DNA from: a virus | Length of the DNA stretch: 39,771 nucleotides | Virus record (IMG/VR): IMGVR_UViG_3300045988_007823 | Strand: one strand, 5' to 3' | In this document: piece by piece, positions 440 through 22,808 of the stretch | How the letters are laid out: every line of letters begins with the position of its first letter | Numbering within the stretch: the first letter of the stretch is position 1 | Notes under the pieces: model-generated | What the model was told of the DNA's origin: nothing | Database searches by the model: none | The model's input: the letters and a program-made list of their open reading frames with translations, nothing else | Translations under genes and position numbers: made by a program

Positions 440-1193
440 TTCGCGCGCCTCCCAAAAACTTATCAACGAAATATTTCTGACCTTTGCCGGTAACTTTCGG
501 CGTCCGGGCGGTGAAACTGCCGGTAGCGGATGAATGTACCGTTTCCTTGATGCGGAACAGCTCTAAATCCATGCTTCTCTGCGTCGGCATATTCTTGTCC
601 GAACCGCTATTGCACAGATAACCGTCCTTGCGCAGGATTTCAAAAAGCCGCTTCTCGCCAATGTCCACGCCGTTCTGCCGGATGATCTTTGCAAGGTCAC
701 GAATGAGGATGTCATCGTCCGCCGTGCTGATCGCATAGCCGAGAACGGTTGCCGGGCGGTCGGTCTCGATCTTCTCGGCGAGAGCCTGCCGGTGTTCCCG
801 TTCCTCCTTGAGCGCTGTAAGCACTTTAATCATAGAATCGGGGTCGGCAATCATTTTCTCGACCGTGTCCGGCGTGGCGTACATCCCGTGCTTGCGGATG
901 GACGGGATTACCTCATCGGCGATCTTTGCCTGAAACCGTTCCGCCGCTTCGTTCTTCGCTTTCATGGCGAGACGGTAGAAGATGTTTTCGGGGATGAAGT
1001 TGGGTCTTTCGCCACAAGTGGCGAAACCGAGTTCCGCGAGGTACTGTTCGACGCGCTTCCAACGAACAACCTCGTTGCCACTTGTGGCAACGGTCGTGAA
1101 TCCCAGACCGCGGGCGACGGCTTCCAGATTCAGATACGCCGTGCCGTCCTTTTCGTAGCAGCTCACGCCGCTGATTGTGATAATGTCGCTCAT
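429..1193 (-). CDS. ant: Phage antirepressor with a Bro-N-like N-terminal region and an ANT/KilAC-type C-terminal domain.
   Basis: 254-aa ORF. The motif ...RFQAKIADEVIPSIRKHGMY... is typical of Bro-N, and the C-terminal half resembles KilAC antirepressor domains. Confidence 0.85.
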   Translation of the reverse strand: MSDIITISGVSCYEKDGTAYLNLEAVARGLGFTTVATSGNEVVRWKRVEQYLAELGFATCGERPNFIPENIFYRLAMKAKNEAAERFQAKIADEVIPSIRKHGMYATPDTVEKMIADPDSMIKVLTALKEEREHRQALAEKIETDRPATVLGYAISTADDDILIRDLAKIIRQNGVDIGEKRLFEILRKDGYLCNSGSDKNMPTQRSMDLELFRIKETVHSSATGSFTARTPKVTGKGQKYFVDKFLGGARNDT

Positions 1194-1333
1194 TCCTTAT
1201 CCTCCTTCTTTTCGGCTTTGATGCCGTCCAGTCTGCCCTGCAAGTAGCCGCGGACATAATCCGCGCCGTCCGGCGGGATTTGTTTCAGACTGTCGATGAC
1301 TTCCTTTGCAGCCTGTTTTTCCTTTTCGCTCAT
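1190..1333 (-). CDS. Small leader ORF of 47 aa (MSEKEKQAAKEVIDSLKQIPPDGADYVRGYLQGRLDGIKAEKKEDKE), translationally coupled to the antirepressor.
   Basis: ATG at 1333 lies 7 nt after AAAGGAGG. Its TGA overlaps the antirepressor ATG in an ATGA arrangement. It is too short to appear in the ORF track. Confidence 0.5.
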   Translation of the reverse strand: MSEKEKQAAKEVIDSLKQIPPDGADYVRGYLQGRLDGIKAEKKEDKE

Positions 1334-1351
1334 GGTTTCGCCTCCTTTGTG

Positions 1352-1360
1352 TGATATAAT
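1352..1360 (+). promoter_or_regulatory. Extended -10 promoter TGaTATAAT firing rightward into module A.
   Basis: TG at 1352-1353, spacer A, TATAAT at 1355-1360. There is no good -35. The predicted start near 1367 coincides with the first base of the 25-bp helix. Confidence 0.5.
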
Positions 1361-1367
1361 CGGTTAA

Positions 1368-1595
1368 CCGGCTTTAGGTACTGCGCACCCCCTCCGAAAG
1401 GAGGTGGGAAAATCAAGAGATTCTATACAGATTCGTTTGCCGAGGCGATCTCGCTCATCGCCAAAGGCTGGAAGCTGGATAGTGTCGCTTATTTCGTCAA
1501 CGGCGACGGGATAAGCATCATCCTATCTAAGTAACCTAATCCAAGTGCTTTTATATCCCCCGCAGACCTCGGGGGTACGCAGTACCTAAAACCGG
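1368..1595. repeat. Module A, one of two paralogous ~228-nt elements. A 25-bp closing helix encloses a 178-nt interior.
   Basis: The arms CCGGCTTTAGGTACTGCGCACCCCC and GGGGGTACGCAGTACCTAAAACCGG give 23 Watson-Crick pairs and 2 C-A mismatches on the plus strand. Those mismatches would be G-U pairs on the minus strand. The interior aligns with module B. Confidence 0.85.
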
Positions 1596-1602
1596 CTTGC
1601 TG

Positions 1603-1628
1603 CCGCCCTGCCGGGCGGTTATTTTTTT
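1603..1628 (+). terminator. Rho-independent terminator (CCGCCC-tgcc-GGGCGG followed by TTATTTTTTT).
   Basis: A GC-rich 6-bp hairpin at 1603-1618 is followed directly by a T-rich tract at 1619-1628. Confidence 0.65.
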
Positions 1629-1654
1629 GAAACCGCTTGACCAAACTGCAAAAG
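1629..1654. repeat. Left arm of a long inverted repeat that pairs with 1928-1953.
   Basis: GAAACCGCTTGACCAAACTGCAAAAG is the reverse complement of 1928-1953 apart from two positions. Those two positions are C-A on the plus strand and G-U on the minus strand. Confidence 0.8.
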
Positions 1655-1927
1655 GCAGATAAAGTTTAGTTACCCGTCGGGTCAGAAAGGGGGATTGATA
1701 GCGTGCAGACTTTGGTCGAAAGCTTCATGAAACCTCATCTGGGCTCGCCGCAAGTCATTTGACAGCCCCGCTTTCGTGGGCGGCTCACCGGTCGTAGTCA
1801 AATGATGTGCAGTTAAGAAACTCCATCGCTCGGAGTAGGTGTCACCAGCACCTGCGCTGTACTGCGAGCCATTCGGGCGGAGCGGGGGTCGGGATGTGAG
1901 CGACATCTCGCCCTCGCTCTGTTCCCG

Positions 1928-1953
1928 CTTTTGCAGCTTGGTCAAACGGTTTT
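1928..1953. repeat. Right arm of the long inverted repeat. It is followed by a second CCGCCC-tgtc-GGGCGG hairpin at 1962-1977.
   Basis: CTTTTGCAGCTTGGTCAAACGGTTTT pairs with 1629-1654. The adjacent hairpin mirrors the 1603-1618 hairpin but has no T tract. Confidence 0.8.
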
Positions 1954-1993
1954 CCTTTCTTCCGCCCTGTCGGGCGGGGGGTGTCAAACTTCC

Positions 1994-2215
1994 GATCCGC
2001 TTAAAATACTGCGTCCCCATGGGGGGAGGTGGTATTCGACGAGATATTACGCAAGTTCCCTGCGTGAAGCTATGGACAAGATAGCTTCCGGCTGGCGGCT
2101 TGATAGTATCGCTTGCTTTGTCAGCAATGGCAACTTGAGCATTATCCTATCTAAGTAACCCCAGCACTCTTTTTTCGCTCTGCACAATTCGGGGGCGCAG
2201 TATTTTAAGCGGATC
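1994..2215. repeat. Module B, the paralog of module A. A 25-bp closing helix encloses a 172-nt interior.
   Basis: The arms GATCCGCTTAAAATACTGCGTCCCC and GGGGGCGCAGTATTTTAAGCGGATC give 24 Watson-Crick pairs and one G-U pair on the plus strand. The interior shares GGAGGTGG, GGCTGG..GATAGT.TCGCTT and ATCCTATCTAAGTAACC blocks with module A. Confidence 0.85.
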
Positions 2216-2258
2216 AGTTCTTTCTGCGGGCGGTTGGTTGCTTTCTCAACTTGGTTTC

Positions 2259-2287
2259 ATTTTAACGCTACTTAGTTTAAATGTCAA
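2259..2287 (-). promoter_or_regulatory. Strong sigma-70-type early promoter for the leftward operon (TTGACA, 17-nt spacer, TAAAAT).
   Basis: On the minus strand the -35 TTGACA is the complement of 2282-2287 and the -10 TAAAAT is the complement of 2259-2264. The spacer is exactly 17 nt. It is divergent from the repressor promoter. Confidence 0.7.
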
Positions 2288-2319
2288 GCAATTTTTGAAA
2301 CTGGGTTTATAAATTTTTC

Positions 2320-2348
2320 TTGACTATCAAGAATCCAAATGTTATATT
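2320..2348 (+). promoter_or_regulatory. Promoter of the repressor gene (TTGACT, 17-nt spacer, TATATT).
   Basis: -35 at 2320-2325 and -10 at 2343-2348. AAAGGAGG and the ATG at 2374 follow. Confidence 0.7.
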
Positions 2349-2373
2349 GAATAGCGAAAGGAGGTAGCGCAAA

Positions 2374-2766
2374 ATGGAGACCATAAATAAGCAAATTGCC
2401 GCTTTGATCCACGCAAAGGGAATGAACAAGTCGCAGTTTGCGGAGAGCATCAACGTATCGCCGCAGTTTATTTCCGCAGTTTGCACCGGGACTAAGCAGC
2501 CGAGCGACCGAACGATCGCTGATATATGCCGCGTGTACAACGTTAACGAGGACTGGCTGCGGGACGGAACGGGCGAGCCGTTCATGCAGCTCTCGCGCGA
2601 GGAAACCATCGCGGCGTACGTCGGAAGGATTACCGGCGGACACATCACGGACATTGAGGAGAGCATCATAAAGTTCATGGCGGAAACGCCGGTAGAGGAA
2701 TGGGAAAACCTCGCCCGCGCCCTGCGGCGGTTTGCCGAGACAATAAAAAAGCCCGATACGGAGTGA
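2374..2766 (+). CDS. XRE-family HTH repressor, cI-like, with no S24 peptidase domain.
   Basis: 130 aa. The N-terminal segment KGMNKSQFAESINVSPQFISAVCTGTKQPSDRTIADICRVYNVNEDWL is a classic XRE HTH. It has a strong RBS and its own promoter and terminator. Confidence 0.85.
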   Translation: METINKQIAALIHAKGMNKSQFAESINVSPQFISAVCTGTKQPSDRTIADICRVYNVNEDWLRDGTGEPFMQLSREETIAAYVGRITGGHITDIEESIIKFMAETPVEEWENLARALRRFAETIKKPDTE

Positions 2767-2786
2767 TCCGTACCGGGCATTTTTTC
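2751..2786. terminator. Bidirectional intrinsic terminator shared by the repressor gene and the convergent 33-aa ORF.
   Basis: An 11-bp stem with one mismatch pairs 2751-2761 with 2768-2778. An A tract lies upstream and a T tract downstream. The repressor stop codon sits in the loop. Confidence 0.7.
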
Positions 2787-2794
2787 TGTTGTGG

Positions 2795-2896
2795 TTACAA
2801 CATGTTCAAAGCGGTTATGTACAAGAGGTGCAGCATTTTCGTGTCCATGAGGCGCAGGATGCGGACGATCTTCTCAATTTGGCGTTCCTTTTCCAT
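2795..2896 (-). CDS. 33-aa peptide ORF (MEKERQIEKIVRILRLMDTKMLHLLYITALNML).
   Basis: ATG at 2896 lies 4 nt after AAGGAGGG. A TTTAGA, 17-nt spacer, TATAAT promoter-like element lies upstream on the minus strand near 2925-2953. The ORF ends at the bidirectional terminator. Confidence 0.4.
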   Translation of the reverse strand: MEKERQIEKIVRILRLMDTKMLHLLYITALNML

Positions 2897-3005
2897 TTTT
2901 CCCTCCTTATTTTATTGCCTTTCGACAAATTGCGCCTTGATTATATCGGTAAAAAGAGTTATTCTAAACATATCCACAGTAAAAATTTAATAGGAGTGGG
3001 ATATT

Positions 3006-3788
3006 ATGAGGAAGAAACTGCTTGCCCTTGCATTAGTCTTTGCGCTCGTTTTTGCCCTTTGCGCGTGCGGCGCGGCGGCTCAAACGGCGAAAGAAGAAGC
3101 AAGTCAGGTTGTTGAAGCGACAGCCACACCGGCACCGACACCAGAACCGACGCAGCAGCCGGAACCAGTAATTGATTACGAAATAACGTACACAAACTGC
3201 AAAGTTGGAACGGATGACGCCGGGAGAAACACGTTTGCTCAAATCCTTTTCGTCGTCGAAAACAAGGGCGACTGCAATATAACGTTAAGCTATGAAAAAC
3301 CGAGCTATGTCGATCTCGTGGACGAAGCCGGAAACATTGTTGAAACGAAGAACATCGGTGGCGGTTATCCCAGCGTCATAAAGCCAGGCGAAAAATCGTA
3401 CTTCTTCCAGCAGGAAGTTATCACAACCGAAGAGCGGAATCTTACAGCCGTTCCGTCCATTGACTTTCAACAAGCATTCGAGGAAATTACTTTTCTGCCG
3501 ACAAAGGACGTGACCTTCGGCAGAGACACCCGCCCGTATAACCCGTCCGGCGTCGTTGCTTCCGGCATTGTGGAAAACACAACCGGAAAACTGGTAACCT
3601 ATTGTAACATTTATGTTGTTCTGTTCTCCGGCGATGATCCGGTCGGCGTCATATCGTCTTATATCTCCGATCCGATACATGAGGACAGCGAGGCGGAATT
3701 TGAGACAATGGACGGGCGCGAAATGCAGCGCTTTGTCAATTTCAATGATATAACGTCTTATGAGGCGTCCGCTTACATCATAAAGTGA
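3006..3788 (+). CDS. Prophage lipoprotein (signal peptide plus lipobox) with two beta-rich domains.
   Basis: MRKKLLALALVFALVFALCAC is a lipoprotein signal sequence. A Pro/Thr/Glu-rich linker follows, then two similar beta-rich segments. AGGAG RBS. Confidence 0.8.
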   Translation: MRKKLLALALVFALVFALCACGAAAQTAKEEASQVVEATATPAPTPEPTQQPEPVIDYEITYTNCKVGTDDAGRNTFAQILFVVENKGDCNITLSYEKPSYVDLVDEAGNIVETKNIGGGYPSVIKPGEKSYFFQQEVITTEERNLTAVPSIDFQQAFEEITFLPTKDVTFGRDTRPYNPSGVVASGIVENTTGKLVTYCNIYVVLFSGDDPVGVISSYISDPIHEDSEAEFETMDGREMQRFVNFNDITSYEASAYIIK

Positions 3789-3979
3789 GAAGTGCCCCGG
3801 CATTGGCGGCAACCTCTGCCGGGGCTGCACCAGATACACCTTGTAAACCGACTTCATCTGCTGCAATCTTATGGTAGCAGATATTCACCGAAACTCAAGC
3901 GCCCGTACGGAAAAACGCTTGCCGTTTCCGCCAATCACCATGTTTAAGCGCTTTCCCGCTGGGAAAATCTTTTGCGGAA

Positions 3980-4555
3980 GTGATAGTTTTGTCTCAGATT
4001 CAGGAATTGCAACCGTTATTCGACGAATATCCATACAAAATGAAAAAAGCCCGTATGGACAAGGGCTTGACGCAGAAGCAGCTTTCCGACATGTCCGGCG
4101 TTCCGTATTCTGCCATAACGAAGATGGCAACAAACAACCAAGATGCATTGTTAAACTGCGTAGCGTTGTGCACAGTGCTTGATGTATCAATGGATGAGCT
4201 ATTCGGGCTGAAAGCGTCCGACAGTAAGGCGGAATTGCACGAGCAGAATCATGAGTTGGAAATCAGCAATATCCGGCAAGAGGGGAATATAAAACGTCTG
4301 AAAGAGCTGAACGACATGTTGACAGCGCAGGCCGCGCGGTATCGAACGATCATTTTTATGCTGCTCGGCGTTTGCGCTCTTCTGCTTGTTTCAGTCATTA
4401 GCTATATCGTCTTCGACATACAGCTCACAACCGCCGGGCTTTTCCGGTCAGCAAAAACAAGCACGCTTACTGTGTTCCTGGGCCTTGTCGTTCTCGCCTC
4501 CATCTGCGCCATCGGGTACGCCGTTCACACGATCCACAAAGGGATGAAAAAATAA
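3980..4555 (+). CDS. Membrane-anchored XRE-family HTH protein (HTH, coiled coil, two TM helices).
   Basis: KGLTQKQLSDMSGVPYSAITKMATNNQ is an HTH. The C-terminus has two hydrophobic helices, IIFMLLGVCALLLVSVISYIVF and VFLGLVVLASICAIGYAV. The start is uncertain and could be ATG 4040 instead. Confidence 0.7.
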   Translation: MIVLSQIQELQPLFDEYPYKMKKARMDKGLTQKQLSDMSGVPYSAITKMATNNQDALLNCVALCTVLDVSMDELFGLKASDSKAELHEQNHELEISNIRQEGNIKRLKELNDMLTAQAARYRTIIFMLLGVCALLLVSVISYIVFDIQLTTAGLFRSAKTSTLTVFLGLVVLASICAIGYAVHTIHKGMKK

Positions 4556-4601
4556 AATCTGCCCTCGGTCTGCACCGGGGGCATTGTAATAAGGTGATGG
4601 G

Positions 4602-5711
4602 ATGAATTGCCGTAAATGCAAAAAGGAAATACCGGAGAATAGCGCGTTCTGCCTGTTCTGTGGGGCGAAGCAACAGGTAACAGAGCGTAAACGCCGGAAG
4701 CGCGGGAACCAGCAGGGGAACGCGATCAAGCGCGGGAAAACGTGGACGGCACGCTGGACGGTGGCGACGCAGAATATCAACGGAGAAATAAGGCAAATCC
4801 GAAAGACGTTAGGAGGTTTCCCCACACAAACAGCGGCTCTGGCCTACGCTGCGAATCCTACAGAGCGGAAAGAAAAGCCAAAGTATACGCCGACGCTGAA
4901 AACGTACTATGATACATGGGAAGAAACCGCGCTGCCGAAGCTGAGTAAGTCAAAGCAATGCGCGTTTAAGATCGCGTGGAAGCGCTGGGAGGCCCTGCAC
5001 AATGAGCCGATATTCTCTCTGACCATCAACCAGCTACAGGCGTGTGTTGACGACCAGACGGAAACATATTACCCGGCGCGTGATATGAAAACCGTTATAT
5101 CCCATTTGTACCAGCGGGCATACGCCGAAGGATACGCGCGGGCGAATCTCGCGCAGTTTATCGAACTGCCGCCTCTGGATGAAAAAGAGCAGCAGCCGTT
5201 CACCGAAGAAGAAATAAAAAAGCTATGGAAAGCATACGACGATGGAGACCGTTTTCTCGCGTACCCTCTGTTGATGATATACAGCGGCATGATGCCCGGC
5301 GAGCTGATGCGCTGCACCGCCGATATGATCGACGTGGAGAAATGCGAGATCATCGGGTGCGGCATGAAAACGAAAAAGCGCAAGAGTACGCCGCTCGTCT
5401 TCCCGGACTGGATTGCGCCGATGGTTGCAGACATGGCCGCGAACGTCACCAGCCAAAAGGGCTATATCGTCGGAATGAACCGGGATAACTTCTATGATGA
5501 GTACCACGCGGCGTTACAACGCGCCGGGGTGCGCGATCTGCCGCCGTATTCCTGCCGCCACACAACGGCGACGGCGCTTGCGCTGGCTAAGACCGCGCCG
5601 TCTCTGATTCAAGAAATCATGCGGCACACGAAATTCTCCACAACGCAACGGTACATTCACCCAGACATGACAGACGCGCACGAAGCGGTAAACGTGTTGC
5701 GGCAATCGTGA
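4602..5711 (+). CDS. int: Tyrosine recombinase/integrase with an N-terminal zinc-ribbon.
   Basis: The N-terminus reads CRKC...CLFCG. The C-terminus reads ...SCRHTTATALA...IMRHTKFSTTQRYIHP, carrying the R, HxxR and Y catalytic signature. It lies adjacent to the attP core. Confidence 0.9.
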   Translation: MNCRKCKKEIPENSAFCLFCGAKQQVTERKRRKRGNQQGNAIKRGKTWTARWTVATQNINGEIRQIRKTLGGFPTQTAALAYAANPTERKEKPKYTPTLKTYYDTWEETALPKLSKSKQCAFKIAWKRWEALHNEPIFSLTINQLQACVDDQTETYYPARDMKTVISHLYQRAYAEGYARANLAQFIELPPLDEKEQQPFTEEEIKKLWKAYDDGDRFLAYPLLMIYSGMMPGELMRCTADMIDVEKCEIIGCGMKTKKRKSTPLVFPDWIAPMVADMAANVTSQKGYIVGMNRDNFYDEYHAALQRAGVRDLPPYSCRHTTATALALAKTAPSLIQEIMRHTKFSTTQRYIHPDMTDAHEAVNVLRQS

Positions 5712-22734: not shown

Positions 22735-22808
22735 TGGCGGCGCGAGCTGGACTTGAACCAGCAACAACAGGTTCAGAGCCTGTTGTGTTCCCGTTACACC
22801 ATCGCGCT
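22735..22808 (-). tRNA. tRNA-Gln(CUG), 74 nt with encoded CCA.
   Basis: Hand-folded cloverleaf: acceptor AGCGCGA/TCGCGCC with position 1-72 as A-C, D arm GTGT-AACGGGA-ACAC, anticodon arm ACAGG-CTCTGAA-CCTGT, variable loop TGTT, T arm GCTGG-TTCAAGT-CCAGC, discriminator G, CCA. Confidence 0.85.

What the first reader, a model, noticed from the sequence alone, without database searches (positions are those of the whole stretch)
1334..2373. About 1 kb without a credible ORF between the divergent repressor and antirepressor promoters, organised as three consecutive helix-closed domains
The leftward early promoter (TTGACA, 17 nt, TAAAAT at 2287-2259) is separated from the first RBS-preceded ORF (ATG 1333) by about 920 nt. 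No cro-like gene occupies the usual position.

The interval is highly ordered:
- Module A (1368-1595) is closed by a 25-bp helix.
- A central ~270-nt GC-rich domain is closed by a 25-26-bp helix (1629-1654 with 1928-1953) and flanked by mirrored CCGCCC/GGGCGG hairpins.
- Module B (1994-2215) is closed by another 25-bp helix.

The ORFs the track reports here lack ribosome-binding sites and have odd composition.

Large ornate RNAs (the ROOL and GOLLD classes) are known to reside in Firmicutes prophages. Antirepressor operons are known to be RNA-controlled (P22 sar, P1 c4). I cannot assign this element to any of these from memory. It could be a new large structured RNA or an RNA or DNA switch governing the lysis-lysogeny decision.
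Basis: partly seen in the sequence, partly recalled or inferred. Interest (0 to 1): 0.85.

Follow-up and report, generated by a model that had tools for sequence, protein, structure and literature searches.

The report
Hairpin-closed antisense mini-gene cassettes
The apparently empty kilobase in front of this phage's lytic genes is not one giant RNA but a row of three separate hairpin-closed inserts, and two of them carry a conserved 40-residue protein gene on the opposite strand whose function is still unknown.

Summary
The three 25-nt long-range helices exist at the stated coordinates and are far beyond chance. No shuffle gave one, and they are the only three in the 39.8-kb window. Relatives conserve them with many compensatory changes.

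The claim of "no credible ORF" and the single-large-RNA reading do not hold.
- Modules A (1368-1595) and B (1994-2215) are paralogous, self-contained cassettes. Each carries a + strand mini-gene of 40 codons with a strong Shine-Dalgarno. The start codon is AUC in A. In B it is UCG, where relatives have UUG.
- The substitution pattern is coding-like. The AlphaFold2 model is confident (pLDDT 94, β-α-β-β).
- The sequence is homologous to one blade of the three-bladed DUF5648 propeller.
- The cassette architecture recurs in distant phages. It has a C-rich 5' arm end that pairs with the Shine-Dalgarno, about 175 nt between the arms, and a G-rich 3' arm end.
- The cassettes always sit antisense in or near the leader of the leftward early operon, next to the repressor gene.
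- The central domain (~1599-1989) is an indel missing from about half of the contigs that encode the identical repressor. It is an orphan: gene or RNA is undecided.
- Rfam gives nothing.

Best reading: tightly translation-locked, lysogeny-strand mini-genes whose mRNAs are fully complementary to the lytic leader. The mechanism is inferred, not shown.

The parts
2259..2287 (-). Leftward early (lytic) promoter, TTGACA-17-TAAAAT. Its transcript reads leftward through 2215..1368 into the 47-aa gene and the antirepressor.
   Evidence: scores it 11/12. No terminator-like site was found on the - strand between it and 1333.
2320..2348 (+). Promoter of the 130-aa helix-turn-helix repressor gene, TTGACT-17-TATATT with TG. 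The palindrome CTTGACTATCAAG (2319-2331) lies over its -35 hexamer.
   Evidence: promoter. (sequence of the palindrome).
1994..2215 (+). Cassette B. Arms are at 1994-2018 and 2191-2215, and GGAGG is at 2025-2029. The mini-gene runs 2036-2158 (40 codons plus TAA). Its first codon is TCG here and TTG in L029, L064 and L065.
1599..1989 (.). Element X, a lineage-specific ~390-bp indel.
- It contains hairpin-1 with a T-run (1602-1628), which is a + strand terminator for cassette A.
- Its 25-nt arms (1630-1654 and 1928-1952) close a 273-nt interior.
- Hairpin-2 lies at 1962-1977.
- A + strand promoter-like site lies at 1637-1665.
- A candidate - strand ORF runs from TTG at 1945 to the stop at 1682 (87 aa).
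   Evidence: - X is absent from L003, L004 and L006-L010.
- It has no relatives.
- The coding tests were inconclusive.
1368..1595 (+). Cassette A. Arms are at 1368-1392 and 1571-1595. The anti-SD hairpin CCCCCTCC-GAAA-GGAGGTGG lies at 1388-1407, with GGAGG at 1400-1404. The mini-gene runs 1412-1534 (ATC start, 40 codons plus TAA). A local 3' hairpin lies at 1558-1576.
1350..1360 (+). Extended -10 promoter-like element TGTGATATAAT, 7 nt upstream of the 5' arm of cassette A.
   Evidence: It is read from the sequence. It is conserved in relatives of the same arm type. TGnTATAAT-like elements sit in the same position in the distant locus L072 and in L046. This is a prediction only.
1602..1628 (+). 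Intrinsic terminator-like hairpin (GCCGCCCTGCCGGGCGGT) with a T-run, just after cassette A on the + strand.
1190..1333 (-). First gene of the leftward operon (47 aa, no family). Its RBS GGAGG lies at 1341-1345 on the - strand, 22 nt beyond the end of cassette A.
2374..2766 (+). Helix-turn-helix repressor (HTH_3), on the same strand as the mini-genes.

Best explanation
The interval is the roughly 920-nt untranslated leader of the leftward early (lytic) operon. It is built from three independent hairpin-closed inserts, not one RNA.

**Cassettes A and B**
- They are paralogous mini-genes on the + strand, which is the strand of the repressor and integrase. They are antisense to the lytic transcript.
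- Each mRNA is a compact unit. In A, a promoter-like TGTGATATAAT sits 7 nt before the 5' arm. Then come a C-rich arm end that pairs with the Shine-Dalgarno in a tetraloop hairpin, a weak start codon (AUC), 40 codons, a second local hairpin, and the G-rich 3' arm. A U-rich tract or terminator follows.
- The outer parts of the arms clamp the 5' and 3' ends together.
- The product is a 40-residue β-α-β-β protein homologous to a single blade of the DUF5648 three-bladed propeller. That domain is inferred elsewhere to bind glycans, and the mini-protein may assemble as a trimer.

**Inferred mechanism**
- The mini-genes are made in the lysogen at a very low, structure-gated level.
- Their transcripts are fully complementary to the lytic leader. 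Mini-gene expression and leftward early transcription would therefore antagonise each other, through convergent transcription and through a sense-antisense duplex open to a double-strand RNase.
- In the leftward transcript the same helices fold each antisense insert into a closed domain.

**Element X**
- X is an accessory insert in a slot that sister phages fill with small leftward genes.

**Shown versus inferred**
- Shown here: the anatomy, the coding status, conservation and covariation, the modularity and the homology.
- Inferred: the promoter and terminator use, the strand on which the helices matter, the antagonism, and the protein's role.
For: **Helices**
- They are real and non-random.
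- On a 30-sequence alignment the closing helix is 88.7% paired. 17 of 28 pairs carry double changes, 0 of 500 shuffles reach the observed values, and slid controls give 34-45% pairing.
- Wholly different arm sequences occupy the same positions in other cassette types and in distant loci. The spacing between arms is almost constant at 172-178 nt.

**Coding status**
- There are 17 distinct DNA variants and three types at about 50% identity. Only one variant, in L017/L018, has lost its stop codon.
- Variable columns by codon position are 10/4/15 in type A and 1/1/6 in type B. Synonymous codon changes equal or outnumber non-synonymous ones in most pairs.
- Indels occur only outside the ORF.
- The codon-usage score of ORF A is 0.55, against 0.355±0.21 for genes of the window.
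- The AlphaFold2 model has pLDDT 94.
- A profile search finds stand-alone 41-44-aa relatives and multi-repeat DUF5648 proteins, down to E=8e-13.
- DUF5648 is described as a three-bladed β-α propeller inferred to bind glycans (bioRxiv 10.1101/2025.01.06.631476).

**Translation lock**
- In all 14 modules tested, including distant ones, the Shine-Dalgarno pairs with the C-rich inner end of the 5' arm when the 5' part is folded alone.
- Start codons at the initiation position are ATC, ATA, ATT, TTG, GTG and only sometimes ATG.

**Position**
- The cassettes always lie between the first leftward gene and the divergent promoter or repressor region, on the strand opposite to the leftward genes.
- In single-cassette phages the cassette is essentially the whole 5' UTR of the leftward operon (L025: TTGACT-17-TATAAT on the - strand).
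- In the window, the only long + strand genes are those of the lysogeny block.

**Modularity**
-.
Against: - There are no transcript data. Every promoter, terminator and fold is a prediction.
- No convincing + strand promoter is visible upstream of the GTCGGC-type cassettes (L011, L025, L029).
- In L071 the arms lie outside the predicted + transcription unit.
- In L057 a cassette that has lost most of its ORF keeps a perfect 25-bp helix.
- The stems are almost pure Watson-Crick with no strand bias: 1091 WC, 26 G·U on the + strand, 17 on the - strand.
- Together, the L071, L057 and Watson-Crick observations suggest a role for the helix in the leftward transcript or at the DNA level.
- Covariation of the anti-SD hairpin on the alignment was not distinguishable from slid controls.
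- Window cassette B has TCG at the start position and no promoter of its own, so it may be silent.
- The protein has no signal peptide, which sits oddly with a glycan-binding blade.
Confidence: 0.55

Rival explanations
1. The helices work mainly in the leftward (lytic) transcript. Each 22-28-bp near-perfect stem would be a double-strand RNase (RNase III-type) processing site, or a 5' stabiliser or insulator. It would loop out whatever is inserted in the leader and shield a long untranslated leader from decay or premature termination. The mini-genes would be passengers.
For: - The stems are near-perfect Watson-Crick and long enough for RNase III.
- In L025-type phages the predicted leftward transcription start lies within about 5 nt of the helix.
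- The helix survives loss of the ORF in L057.
- It brackets an unrelated interior in X.
- In L071 the arms lie outside the + unit.
- The leader folds into closed domains with z=-7.6.
Against: - The C-rich and G-rich inner arm ends are placed relative to the Shine-Dalgarno of the + strand gene in every type.
- Stems are only 10-17 bp in several distant members, too short for RNase III.
- In L075 the arms lie inside the predicted + transcript.
- This rival is not exclusive of the best explanation.
Confidence: 0.25
2. The cassettes are type I toxin-antitoxin-like modules. The mini-protein would be harmful when made. Its stable, translation-locked mRNA would be held in check by antisense RNA, and the module would serve prophage maintenance or abortive infection.
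For: - The mRNA design matches type I toxin mRNAs: a 5'-3' long-distance helix, Shine-Dalgarno-sequestering hairpins, weak initiation, a very small ORF, a prophage location and a fully complementary transcript from the other strand.
- The design principles are described for aapA3/IsoA3 in PMC6733600 (found).
Against: - The protein is a soluble β-α-β-β mini-domain, not a hydrophobic membrane peptide.
- No conserved dedicated antitoxin promoter was found. Only weak, unconserved 9/12 matches appeared.
- The only antisense transcript predicted is the lytic leader, which is repressed in a lysogen.
- Toxicity was not tested.
Confidence: 0.12
3. The inverted repeats are DNA-level features. They would be the terminal repeats of tiny mobile cassettes (MITE-like or Correia-like), or recombination sites of invertible segments that flip the mini-gene relative to the lytic promoter.
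For: - Cassettes show presence/absence and shuffling between closely related phages.
- The 25-nt terminal inverted repeats are nearly perfect.
- A promoter-like -35 hexamer lies inside an arm in X and in L071.
- Correia elements share the features of an inverted repeat, a promoter and RNase III binding (PMC2649163, found).
Against: - All of the roughly 60 loci show the same orientation, so no inversion was seen.
- There are no dispersed copies: only three such repeats in the window and none of X elsewhere.
- No target-site duplication is visible, and no empty site was found.
- Arm sequences differ completely between cassette types while staying complementary. That fits base-pairing better than recognition by one recombinase.
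Confidence: 0.08
4. The whole 1-kb interval is one large ornate non-coding RNA of the ROOL or GOLLD class, or a new class, on the leftward strand.
For: The interval folds exceptionally stably into three closed domains and lies in a Firmicutes-type prophage.
Against: - There is no Rfam match.
- Two domains carry conserved protein genes on the other strand.
- The central domain is dispensable.
- Relatives function with one, two or other combinations of cassettes.
Confidence: 0.03

Closest known systems
Type I toxin mRNAs (hok/Sok; Helicobacter aapA/IsoA)
   Same: Both have a very small ORF and an mRNA closed by a 5'-3' long-distance helix. Both hide the Shine-Dalgarno in local hairpins that can form during transcription. 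Both have a fully complementary transcript from the opposite strand and are frequently located in prophages.
   Different: The product here is a soluble β-α-β-β mini-domain, not a membrane peptide. No dedicated small antitoxin RNA is evident, and the antisense partner is the leader of the lytic operon. Toxicity is unknown. The start codon is often AUH.
Phage morons (autonomously transcribed accessory genes in prophages)
   Same: Cassette A has its own promoter-like element and terminator. It is inserted between phage genes on the lysogeny strand and varies between close relatives.
   Different: It is inserted antisense inside the 5' leader of the early lytic operon, and its ends form a conserved helix. 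Tandem diverged copies occur.
Antisense control at immunity regions (P22 sar, P1/P7 c4, lambda OOP; convergent promoters of coliphage 186)
   Same: Opposing transcription units face each other at the lysis-lysogeny switch, upstream of an antirepressor operon.
   Different: The + strand RNAs here encode a protein and do not overlap the ribosome-binding site of the first leftward gene or of ant. There is no sequence or Rfam similarity to C4.
Correia repeat-enclosed elements and other bacterial MITEs
   Same: Inverted repeats of about 25 bp enclose 100-300 bp in transcribed leaders and form stems suited to RNase III. Promoter-like hexamers can lie in an arm.
   Different: The cassettes sit at a single locus and are not dispersed. 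No target duplication is visible. The arms are not conserved in sequence between types. Two of the three inserts are protein-coding.
DUF5648 (PF18885) three-bladed β-α propeller domains of secreted enzymes and toxins
   Same: The mini-protein aligns with one blade (RFYTDSFAEAISLIAKGWKLDSVAYFV against HYYTDSTTAEQNAINNGYHLEGIACYV). Its profile finds many DUF5648 proteins.
   Different: It is a single stand-alone blade of 40 residues with no signal peptide and no catalytic partner domain. It scores below the Pfam cut-off on its own.
ROOL / GOLLD large ornate RNAs
   Same: The interval is a large, highly structured region in a Firmicutes prophage.
   Different: There is no covariance-model match. 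The region is modular, partly coding and partly dispensable.

Membership tests
ROOL, GOLLD, C4 antisense RNA and all other Rfam 15 families | A match to the family covariance model | tested here: not met
   The whole window at gathering score gave only a tRNA. Positions 1150-2450 on both strands at E<=10 gave only chance-level microRNA or sRNA matches of 18 bits or less.
Type I toxin-antitoxin | A toxin mRNA with a sequestered Shine-Dalgarno and a 5'-3' long-distance interaction | tested here: met
   In silico only. The Shine-Dalgarno is paired in 14 of 14 modules.
Type I toxin-antitoxin | A small hydrophobic or membrane-active toxic peptide | tested here: not met
   The model is a β-α-β-β mini-domain with pLDDT 94 and no transmembrane helix. 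Toxicity itself cannot be tested here.
Type I toxin-antitoxin | A dedicated antisense RNA antitoxin with its own promoter | tested here: inconclusive
   Only weak 9/12 promoter-like sites lie inside B, and they are not conserved in A. The lytic leader itself is fully antisense.
MITE / Correia-like element | Terminal inverted repeats enclosing a short non-autonomous element | tested here: met
MITE / Correia-like element | Multiple dispersed copies and target-site duplications | tested here: not met
   The window holds only three such repeats, all at this locus. The X arms were not found as a pair anywhere in IMG/VR. No duplication is visible at the indel borders. Host genomes were not searched for X.
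Invertible DNA segment (inverton) | Both orientations present in populations | tested here: not met
   Every mini-gene hit in about 60 loci has the same orientation relative to its flanking genes. Read-level data are not available.
DUF5648 (PF18885) | A score above the Pfam gathering threshold over the 134-position, three-blade model | tested here: not met
   The mini-protein scores 15.8 bits against a cut-off of 25 and matches only profile positions 108-133.
DUF5648 (PF18885) | Sequence homology to the repeat unit (blade) | tested here: met
   The profile of the mini-proteins hits multi-repeat proteins at E down to 8e-13. Pfam calls these DUF5648 at E down to 2e-155. hhalign gives 81% probability and E=1.2e-5 over 27 columns.
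Phage moron | Its own promoter and terminator flanking an accessory gene, and variable presence among relatives | tested here: inconclusive
   Consensus matches are present for cassette A and for L072, L075 and L046. They are not seen for GTCGGC-type cassettes. Variable presence is met. No transcript data are available.
P22 sar / P1 c4-type antirepressor control | An antisense or processed RNA that pairs with the ant ribosome-binding region | tested here: not met
   The predicted + strand units start at about 1367 and run away from the 47-aa gene (RBS 1341-1345) and from ant (429-1193). There is no C4 match.

The most novel reading that the evidence does not exclude
A conserved, undescribed class of translation-locked mini-gene cassettes is a working part of the lysis-lysogeny switch in temperate phages of gut Clostridia.
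- The cassette has a 5'-3' clamp, Shine-Dalgarno/anti-Shine-Dalgarno pairing, an AUH start codon and about 175 nt between the arms.
- Its mRNA and the lytic leader would form a sense-antisense pair that sharpens the decision.
- Its product, a single propeller blade that would have to oligomerise, would have a lysogeny-specific function.
- Separately, element X could be a new structured RNA of about 330 nt.
Probability: 0.25. Interest if true: 0.7.

Novelty: new variant of a known kind. Interest (0 to 1): 0.5.

Why it matters
- Gene callers usually miss this conserved 40-residue protein family because it often starts with AUC, AUA or AUU. No gene was called over the cassettes in the ten close relatives examined. 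The finding therefore adds to the hidden small proteome of gut phages.
- It shows a single stand-alone blade of a propeller domain that is otherwise known only as triple repeats.
- The conserved mRNA design makes translation control in a small-gene mRNA directly testable. The design consists of an end-to-end clamp, a hidden ribosome-binding site and a weak start codon.
- Its placement antisense in the lytic leader suggests a layer of switch control that is not based on Cro.
- The result also warns against reading a long ORF-free, hairpin-rich interval as one ornate RNA.

Tried and rejected
- **Rfam.** Searches at gathering score and at E<=10 found nothing.
- **GenBank phages.** blastn of 1300-2400 gave only one 61-nt, 82% match, over the promoter region.
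- **X arms in IMG/VR.** An 18-mer search gave 16 single-arm hits. None had a partner arm or any interior similarity, so they are chance matches.
- **X against the cassettes.** nhmmer and a protein profile found no similarity.
- **The 87-aa - strand ORF of X.**
  - The only database entry is the same element.
  - The codon score is intermediate.
  - The single-sequence model is a weak helical hairpin with pLDDT 69.
  - There is no PHROG or Pfam hit.
  - Its status is left undecided.
- **Fold search of the mini-protein.** No significant match in PDB or BFVD. Homology came from the sequence profile instead.
- **Empty site.** A search for a cassette-free version of the L025-type leader found none.
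- **Anti-SD hairpin covariation.** On the mixed-type alignment it was no better than slid controls, partly because the register differs between types. Per-sequence folding was used instead.
- **Strand assignment from G·U versus A·C mismatches.** There was no bias.
- **Species-representative genomes.** Only one MAG hit, so the host could not be named.
Full report
**1. The observation**

- Arms 1368-1392/1571-1595 are 25 nt and 92% complementary.
- Arms 1630-1654/1928-1952 are 25 nt and 92% complementary.
- Arms 1994-2018/2191-2215 are 25 nt and 96% complementary.

They are not chance. In 100 dinucleotide-preserving shuffles of 1200-2450, no repeat reached 23 of 25 matches; the best was 19. The whole 39.8-kb window contains exactly these three.

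Either strand is predicted to fold into three helix-closed domains.
- Modules A and B on the + strand have z-scores of -6.3 and -6.7.
- The central element scores -7.6 on the + strand and -5.7 on the - strand.
- The 933-nt leftward leader scores -7.6.

The leftward promoter at 2287-2259 scores 11/12. No terminator-like site lies on the - strand before the first leftward gene. The interval is therefore the 5' leader of the leftward operon.

The two CCGCCC/GGGCGG hairpins are direct copies of one 23-nt unit (repeat family D2). The left one is followed by a T-run, which makes it an intrinsic-terminator-like site on the + strand.

**2. No known RNA family**

Rfam 15 finds only a tRNA in the window at gathering score. 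Over 1150-2450 at E<=10 it finds only chance-level matches of 18 bits or less. ROOL, GOLLD and C4 are among the families searched.

**3. The interval is modular**

Contigs that encode the identical 130-aa repressor come in two forms.
- About half are like the window: L001, L002 and L005, plus similar contigs that were not shown.
- The rest (L003, L004, L006-L010) have an interval 379 bp shorter.

The short form lacks window positions ~1600-1988. That stretch covers the central domain, both GC hairpins and a few flanking bases. In the short form module A abuts module B.

Across all loci collected, the array takes several forms: A alone, B alone, A+B, A+C (a third type), A+X+B, or A followed by small leftward genes and then B.

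In L056 and L058 the slot holds real-looking leftward ORFs of 68 or 50 aa plus 23 aa. They lie behind the same hairpin-2 and the same GAAAGGAAG ribosome-binding site. In the window that site is followed by element X.

**4. Modules A and B are genes**

A and B are paralogs (71 nt at 75% identity). Each contains a + strand frame of 40 codons ending in SIILSK-stop, 6-7 nt downstream of GGAGG.

The ORF listing missed the A frame because it has no ATG, GTG or TTG; its first codon is ATC.

The evidence for coding is as follows.
- There are 17 distinct DNA variants. Only one, in L017/L018, has lost its stop codon.
- Three types (A, B, C) share about 50% amino-acid identity and show no frameshift.
- Variable columns by codon position are 10/4/15 within type A and 1/1/6 within type B.
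- Synonymous codon changes equal or outnumber non-synonymous ones in most pairs, where about 1:3 is expected without selection.
- Divergence and indels begin immediately after the stop codon.
- The codon-usage score of ORF A is 0.55 per codon. Genes of the window average 0.355±0.21 and other frames -0.376±0.40.

AlphaFold2 with an 11-row alignment gives pLDDT 94 and a β-α-β-β fold.

Only ten clusters of this family exist among 5.8 billion protein clusters. None has a Pfam domain.

**5. What the protein resembles**

Fold searches gave no significant hit.

A profile search of 1.84 billion representatives gave 56 hits.
- Some are stand-alone 41-44-aa proteins.
- Many are large proteins matched at 2-12 stretches. 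Of ten hits checked in Pfam, the six long multi-repeat proteins are all DUF5648 (E down to 2e-155). Three of them also carry an M23, M10-like or transglutaminase domain.

hhalign aligns RFYTDSFAEAISLIAKGWKLDSVAYFV with one repeat, HYYTDSTTAEQNAINNGYHLEGIACYV (E=1.2e-5). The direct Pfam hit was sub-threshold (15.8 bits).

DUF5648 is described as a three-bladed β-α propeller and is inferred to bind glycans (bioRxiv 10.1101/2025.01.06.631476). It is also listed among candidate cell-wall-binding domains of endolysins (bioRxiv 10.64898/2026.04.26.720912).

The mini-protein is therefore one blade. That it trimerises is my inference. It has no signal peptide, so its ligand and role are unknown.

**6. 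A conserved mRNA design**

The closing helix covaries strongly. On 30 sequences it is 88.7% paired, and 17 of 28 pairs carry changes on both sides. No shuffle out of 500 reaches the observed values, and slid controls give 34-45% pairing.

Entirely different arm sequences occupy the same positions relative to the ORF. Examples are CCGGCTTTAGGTACTGCGCACCCCC, GTCGGCTTGAAATACTGCGCTCC, AAAAACACTGTGCGTCC and GTTCTATTGCCGC.

Distant members keep the plan.
- L073, L072 (two tandem cassettes), L074, L075 and L077 have arms of 10-23 nt.
- They have 174-178 nt between the arms. The exception is the first L072 cassette (10-nt arms), where the spacing was not measured.
- The same divergent-promoter neighbourhood is seen in L072, L073, L075 and L077.

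In every one of 14 modules folded, the C-rich inner end of the 5' arm pairs with the Shine-Dalgarno in a small hairpin, often with a GAAA-type loop. The inner end of the 3' arm is G-rich and resembles a Shine-Dalgarno.

The codon at the initiation position varies.
- It is ATC in all type A cassettes.
- It is ATA or ATT in several distant members.
- It is TTG or GTG in others, and ATG only sometimes.
- Window cassette B has TCG where L029, L064 and L065 have TTG.

A TGnTATAAT-like element lies 5-8 nt before the 5' arm in the window type (1350-1360), in L046 and in both L072 cassettes. A U-rich tract or a terminator follows the 3' arm in most types.

Together these features describe a compact + strand mRNA with clamped ends, a hidden ribosome-binding site and weak initiation.

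**7. Position and likely logic**

In the window, the long + strand genes are only those of the lysogeny block at 2374-5711. The remaining long ORFs that look like genes run leftward. The mini-genes therefore belong to the lysogeny strand and are fully antisense to the lytic leader.

In single-cassette phages the cassette is essentially the entire 5' UTR. In L025 a perfect TTGACT-17-TATAAT on the - strand places the transcription start within a few nucleotides of the helix. The helix ends about 25 nt before the first gene's ribosome-binding site.

I infer mutual antagonism between mini-gene expression and leftward transcription. It would act through convergent transcription and through a sense-antisense duplex that a double-strand RNase could cut. 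I also infer that in the leftward RNA the same helices compact the untranslated inserts. None of this has been measured.

**8. Points against a purely + strand view**

- The stems are almost pure Watson-Crick and show no strand bias (1091 WC, 26 versus 17 wobble pairs).
- L057 keeps a perfect 25-bp helix around a cassette that has lost most of its ORF.
- In L071 the arms lie outside the predicted promoter-to-terminator unit.
- GTCGGC-type cassettes show no clear + strand promoter.

I therefore give substantial weight to a role of the helices in the leftward transcript, in processing, stability or insulation. I give a small weight to DNA-level explanations. No inverted orientation was seen in about 60 loci. 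No dispersed copies were found, and no empty site.

**9. Element X**

X occurs only in this phage lineage and only at this place. It has no similarity to the cassettes.

Its 25-nt arms bracket a - strand frame precisely. The frame opens with TTG at 1945, just after the shared ribosome-binding site, and stops at 1682, 27 nt before the other arm.

The evidence on that frame is mixed.
- It has no relatives.
- It was not called as a gene in L001, L002 or L005.
- Its codon score of 0.047 is intermediate.
- It gives only a modest single-sequence model: pLDDT 69, with a C-terminal helical hairpin at 82-86.

The interior folds somewhat better than shuffles on both strands (z=-3.6 on +, -2.6 on -). A + strand promoter-like site (9/12) lies in the left arm.

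With only near-identical copies available, no covariation test is possible. Whether X is an orphan gene or an RNA is undecided. It is dispensable for this phage type.

**10. Verdict**

It is not an ORF-free ornate RNA. It is an array of hairpin-closed inserts in the lytic leader, and two of them are a conserved, previously unannotated mini-gene family with a distinctive translation-locked mRNA design.

The closest known designs are type I toxin mRNAs and morons. Membership in either is not established.

Noticed in passing
window 22735-22808 (-): A tRNA-Gln gene (anticodon CTG) lies among the leftward genes of the phage.
   Followed up: partly
window 2319-2331: The perfect palindrome CTTGACTATCAAG overlaps the -35 hexamer of the repressor promoter and may be an operator. 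TTGAC-containing motifs also occur in the X arms and at 1983-1989.
   Followed up: no
L001, L002 versus L003-L010 (integrase region, about 8166-9458 in locus coordinates): Phages that encode the identical 130-aa repressor carry either a tyrosine integrase, as the window does, or a large serine recombinase. Their early leftward genes also differ. The block of repressor plus cassettes moves as a mosaic unit.
   Followed up: partly
L057:3190-3317: A second cassette has lost most of its ORF, and only the C-terminal CCYTLSKR-stop remnant is left. It still keeps a perfect 25-bp closing helix around a 78-nt loop.
   Followed up: partly
L017 and L018, position 2621-2623: The mini-gene stop codon has changed from TAA to TCA, which extends the frame far into the 3' arm and beyond. 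This may be a decaying copy.
   Followed up: no
L056:3190-3500 and L058:3190-3440 (- strand): Small leftward ORFs of 68 or 50 aa, each followed by a shared 23-aa ORF (MKLTGWAWDHA.RNAADAGHKPG), occupy the slot between cassettes A and B.
   Followed up: partly
window 5897-5940: A 20-bp hairpin with a 4-nt loop lies about 190 nt downstream of the integrase gene. It could be a terminator or lie next to the attachment site.
   Followed up: no
window 2036-2038: Cassette B of the window lineage has TCG at the position where L029, L064 and L065 have the TTG start codon. It also has no promoter-like element of its own. The ORF nevertheless differs from the L027 copy only by synonymous changes (5 synonymous, 0 non-synonymous).
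   Followed up: partly
window 1-39771: The window looks like a complete, circularly permuted temperate phage genome of about 40 kb. Most long ORFs, and the genes among them, run leftward. The only + strand gene block is the lysogeny block at 2374-5711.
   Followed up: no
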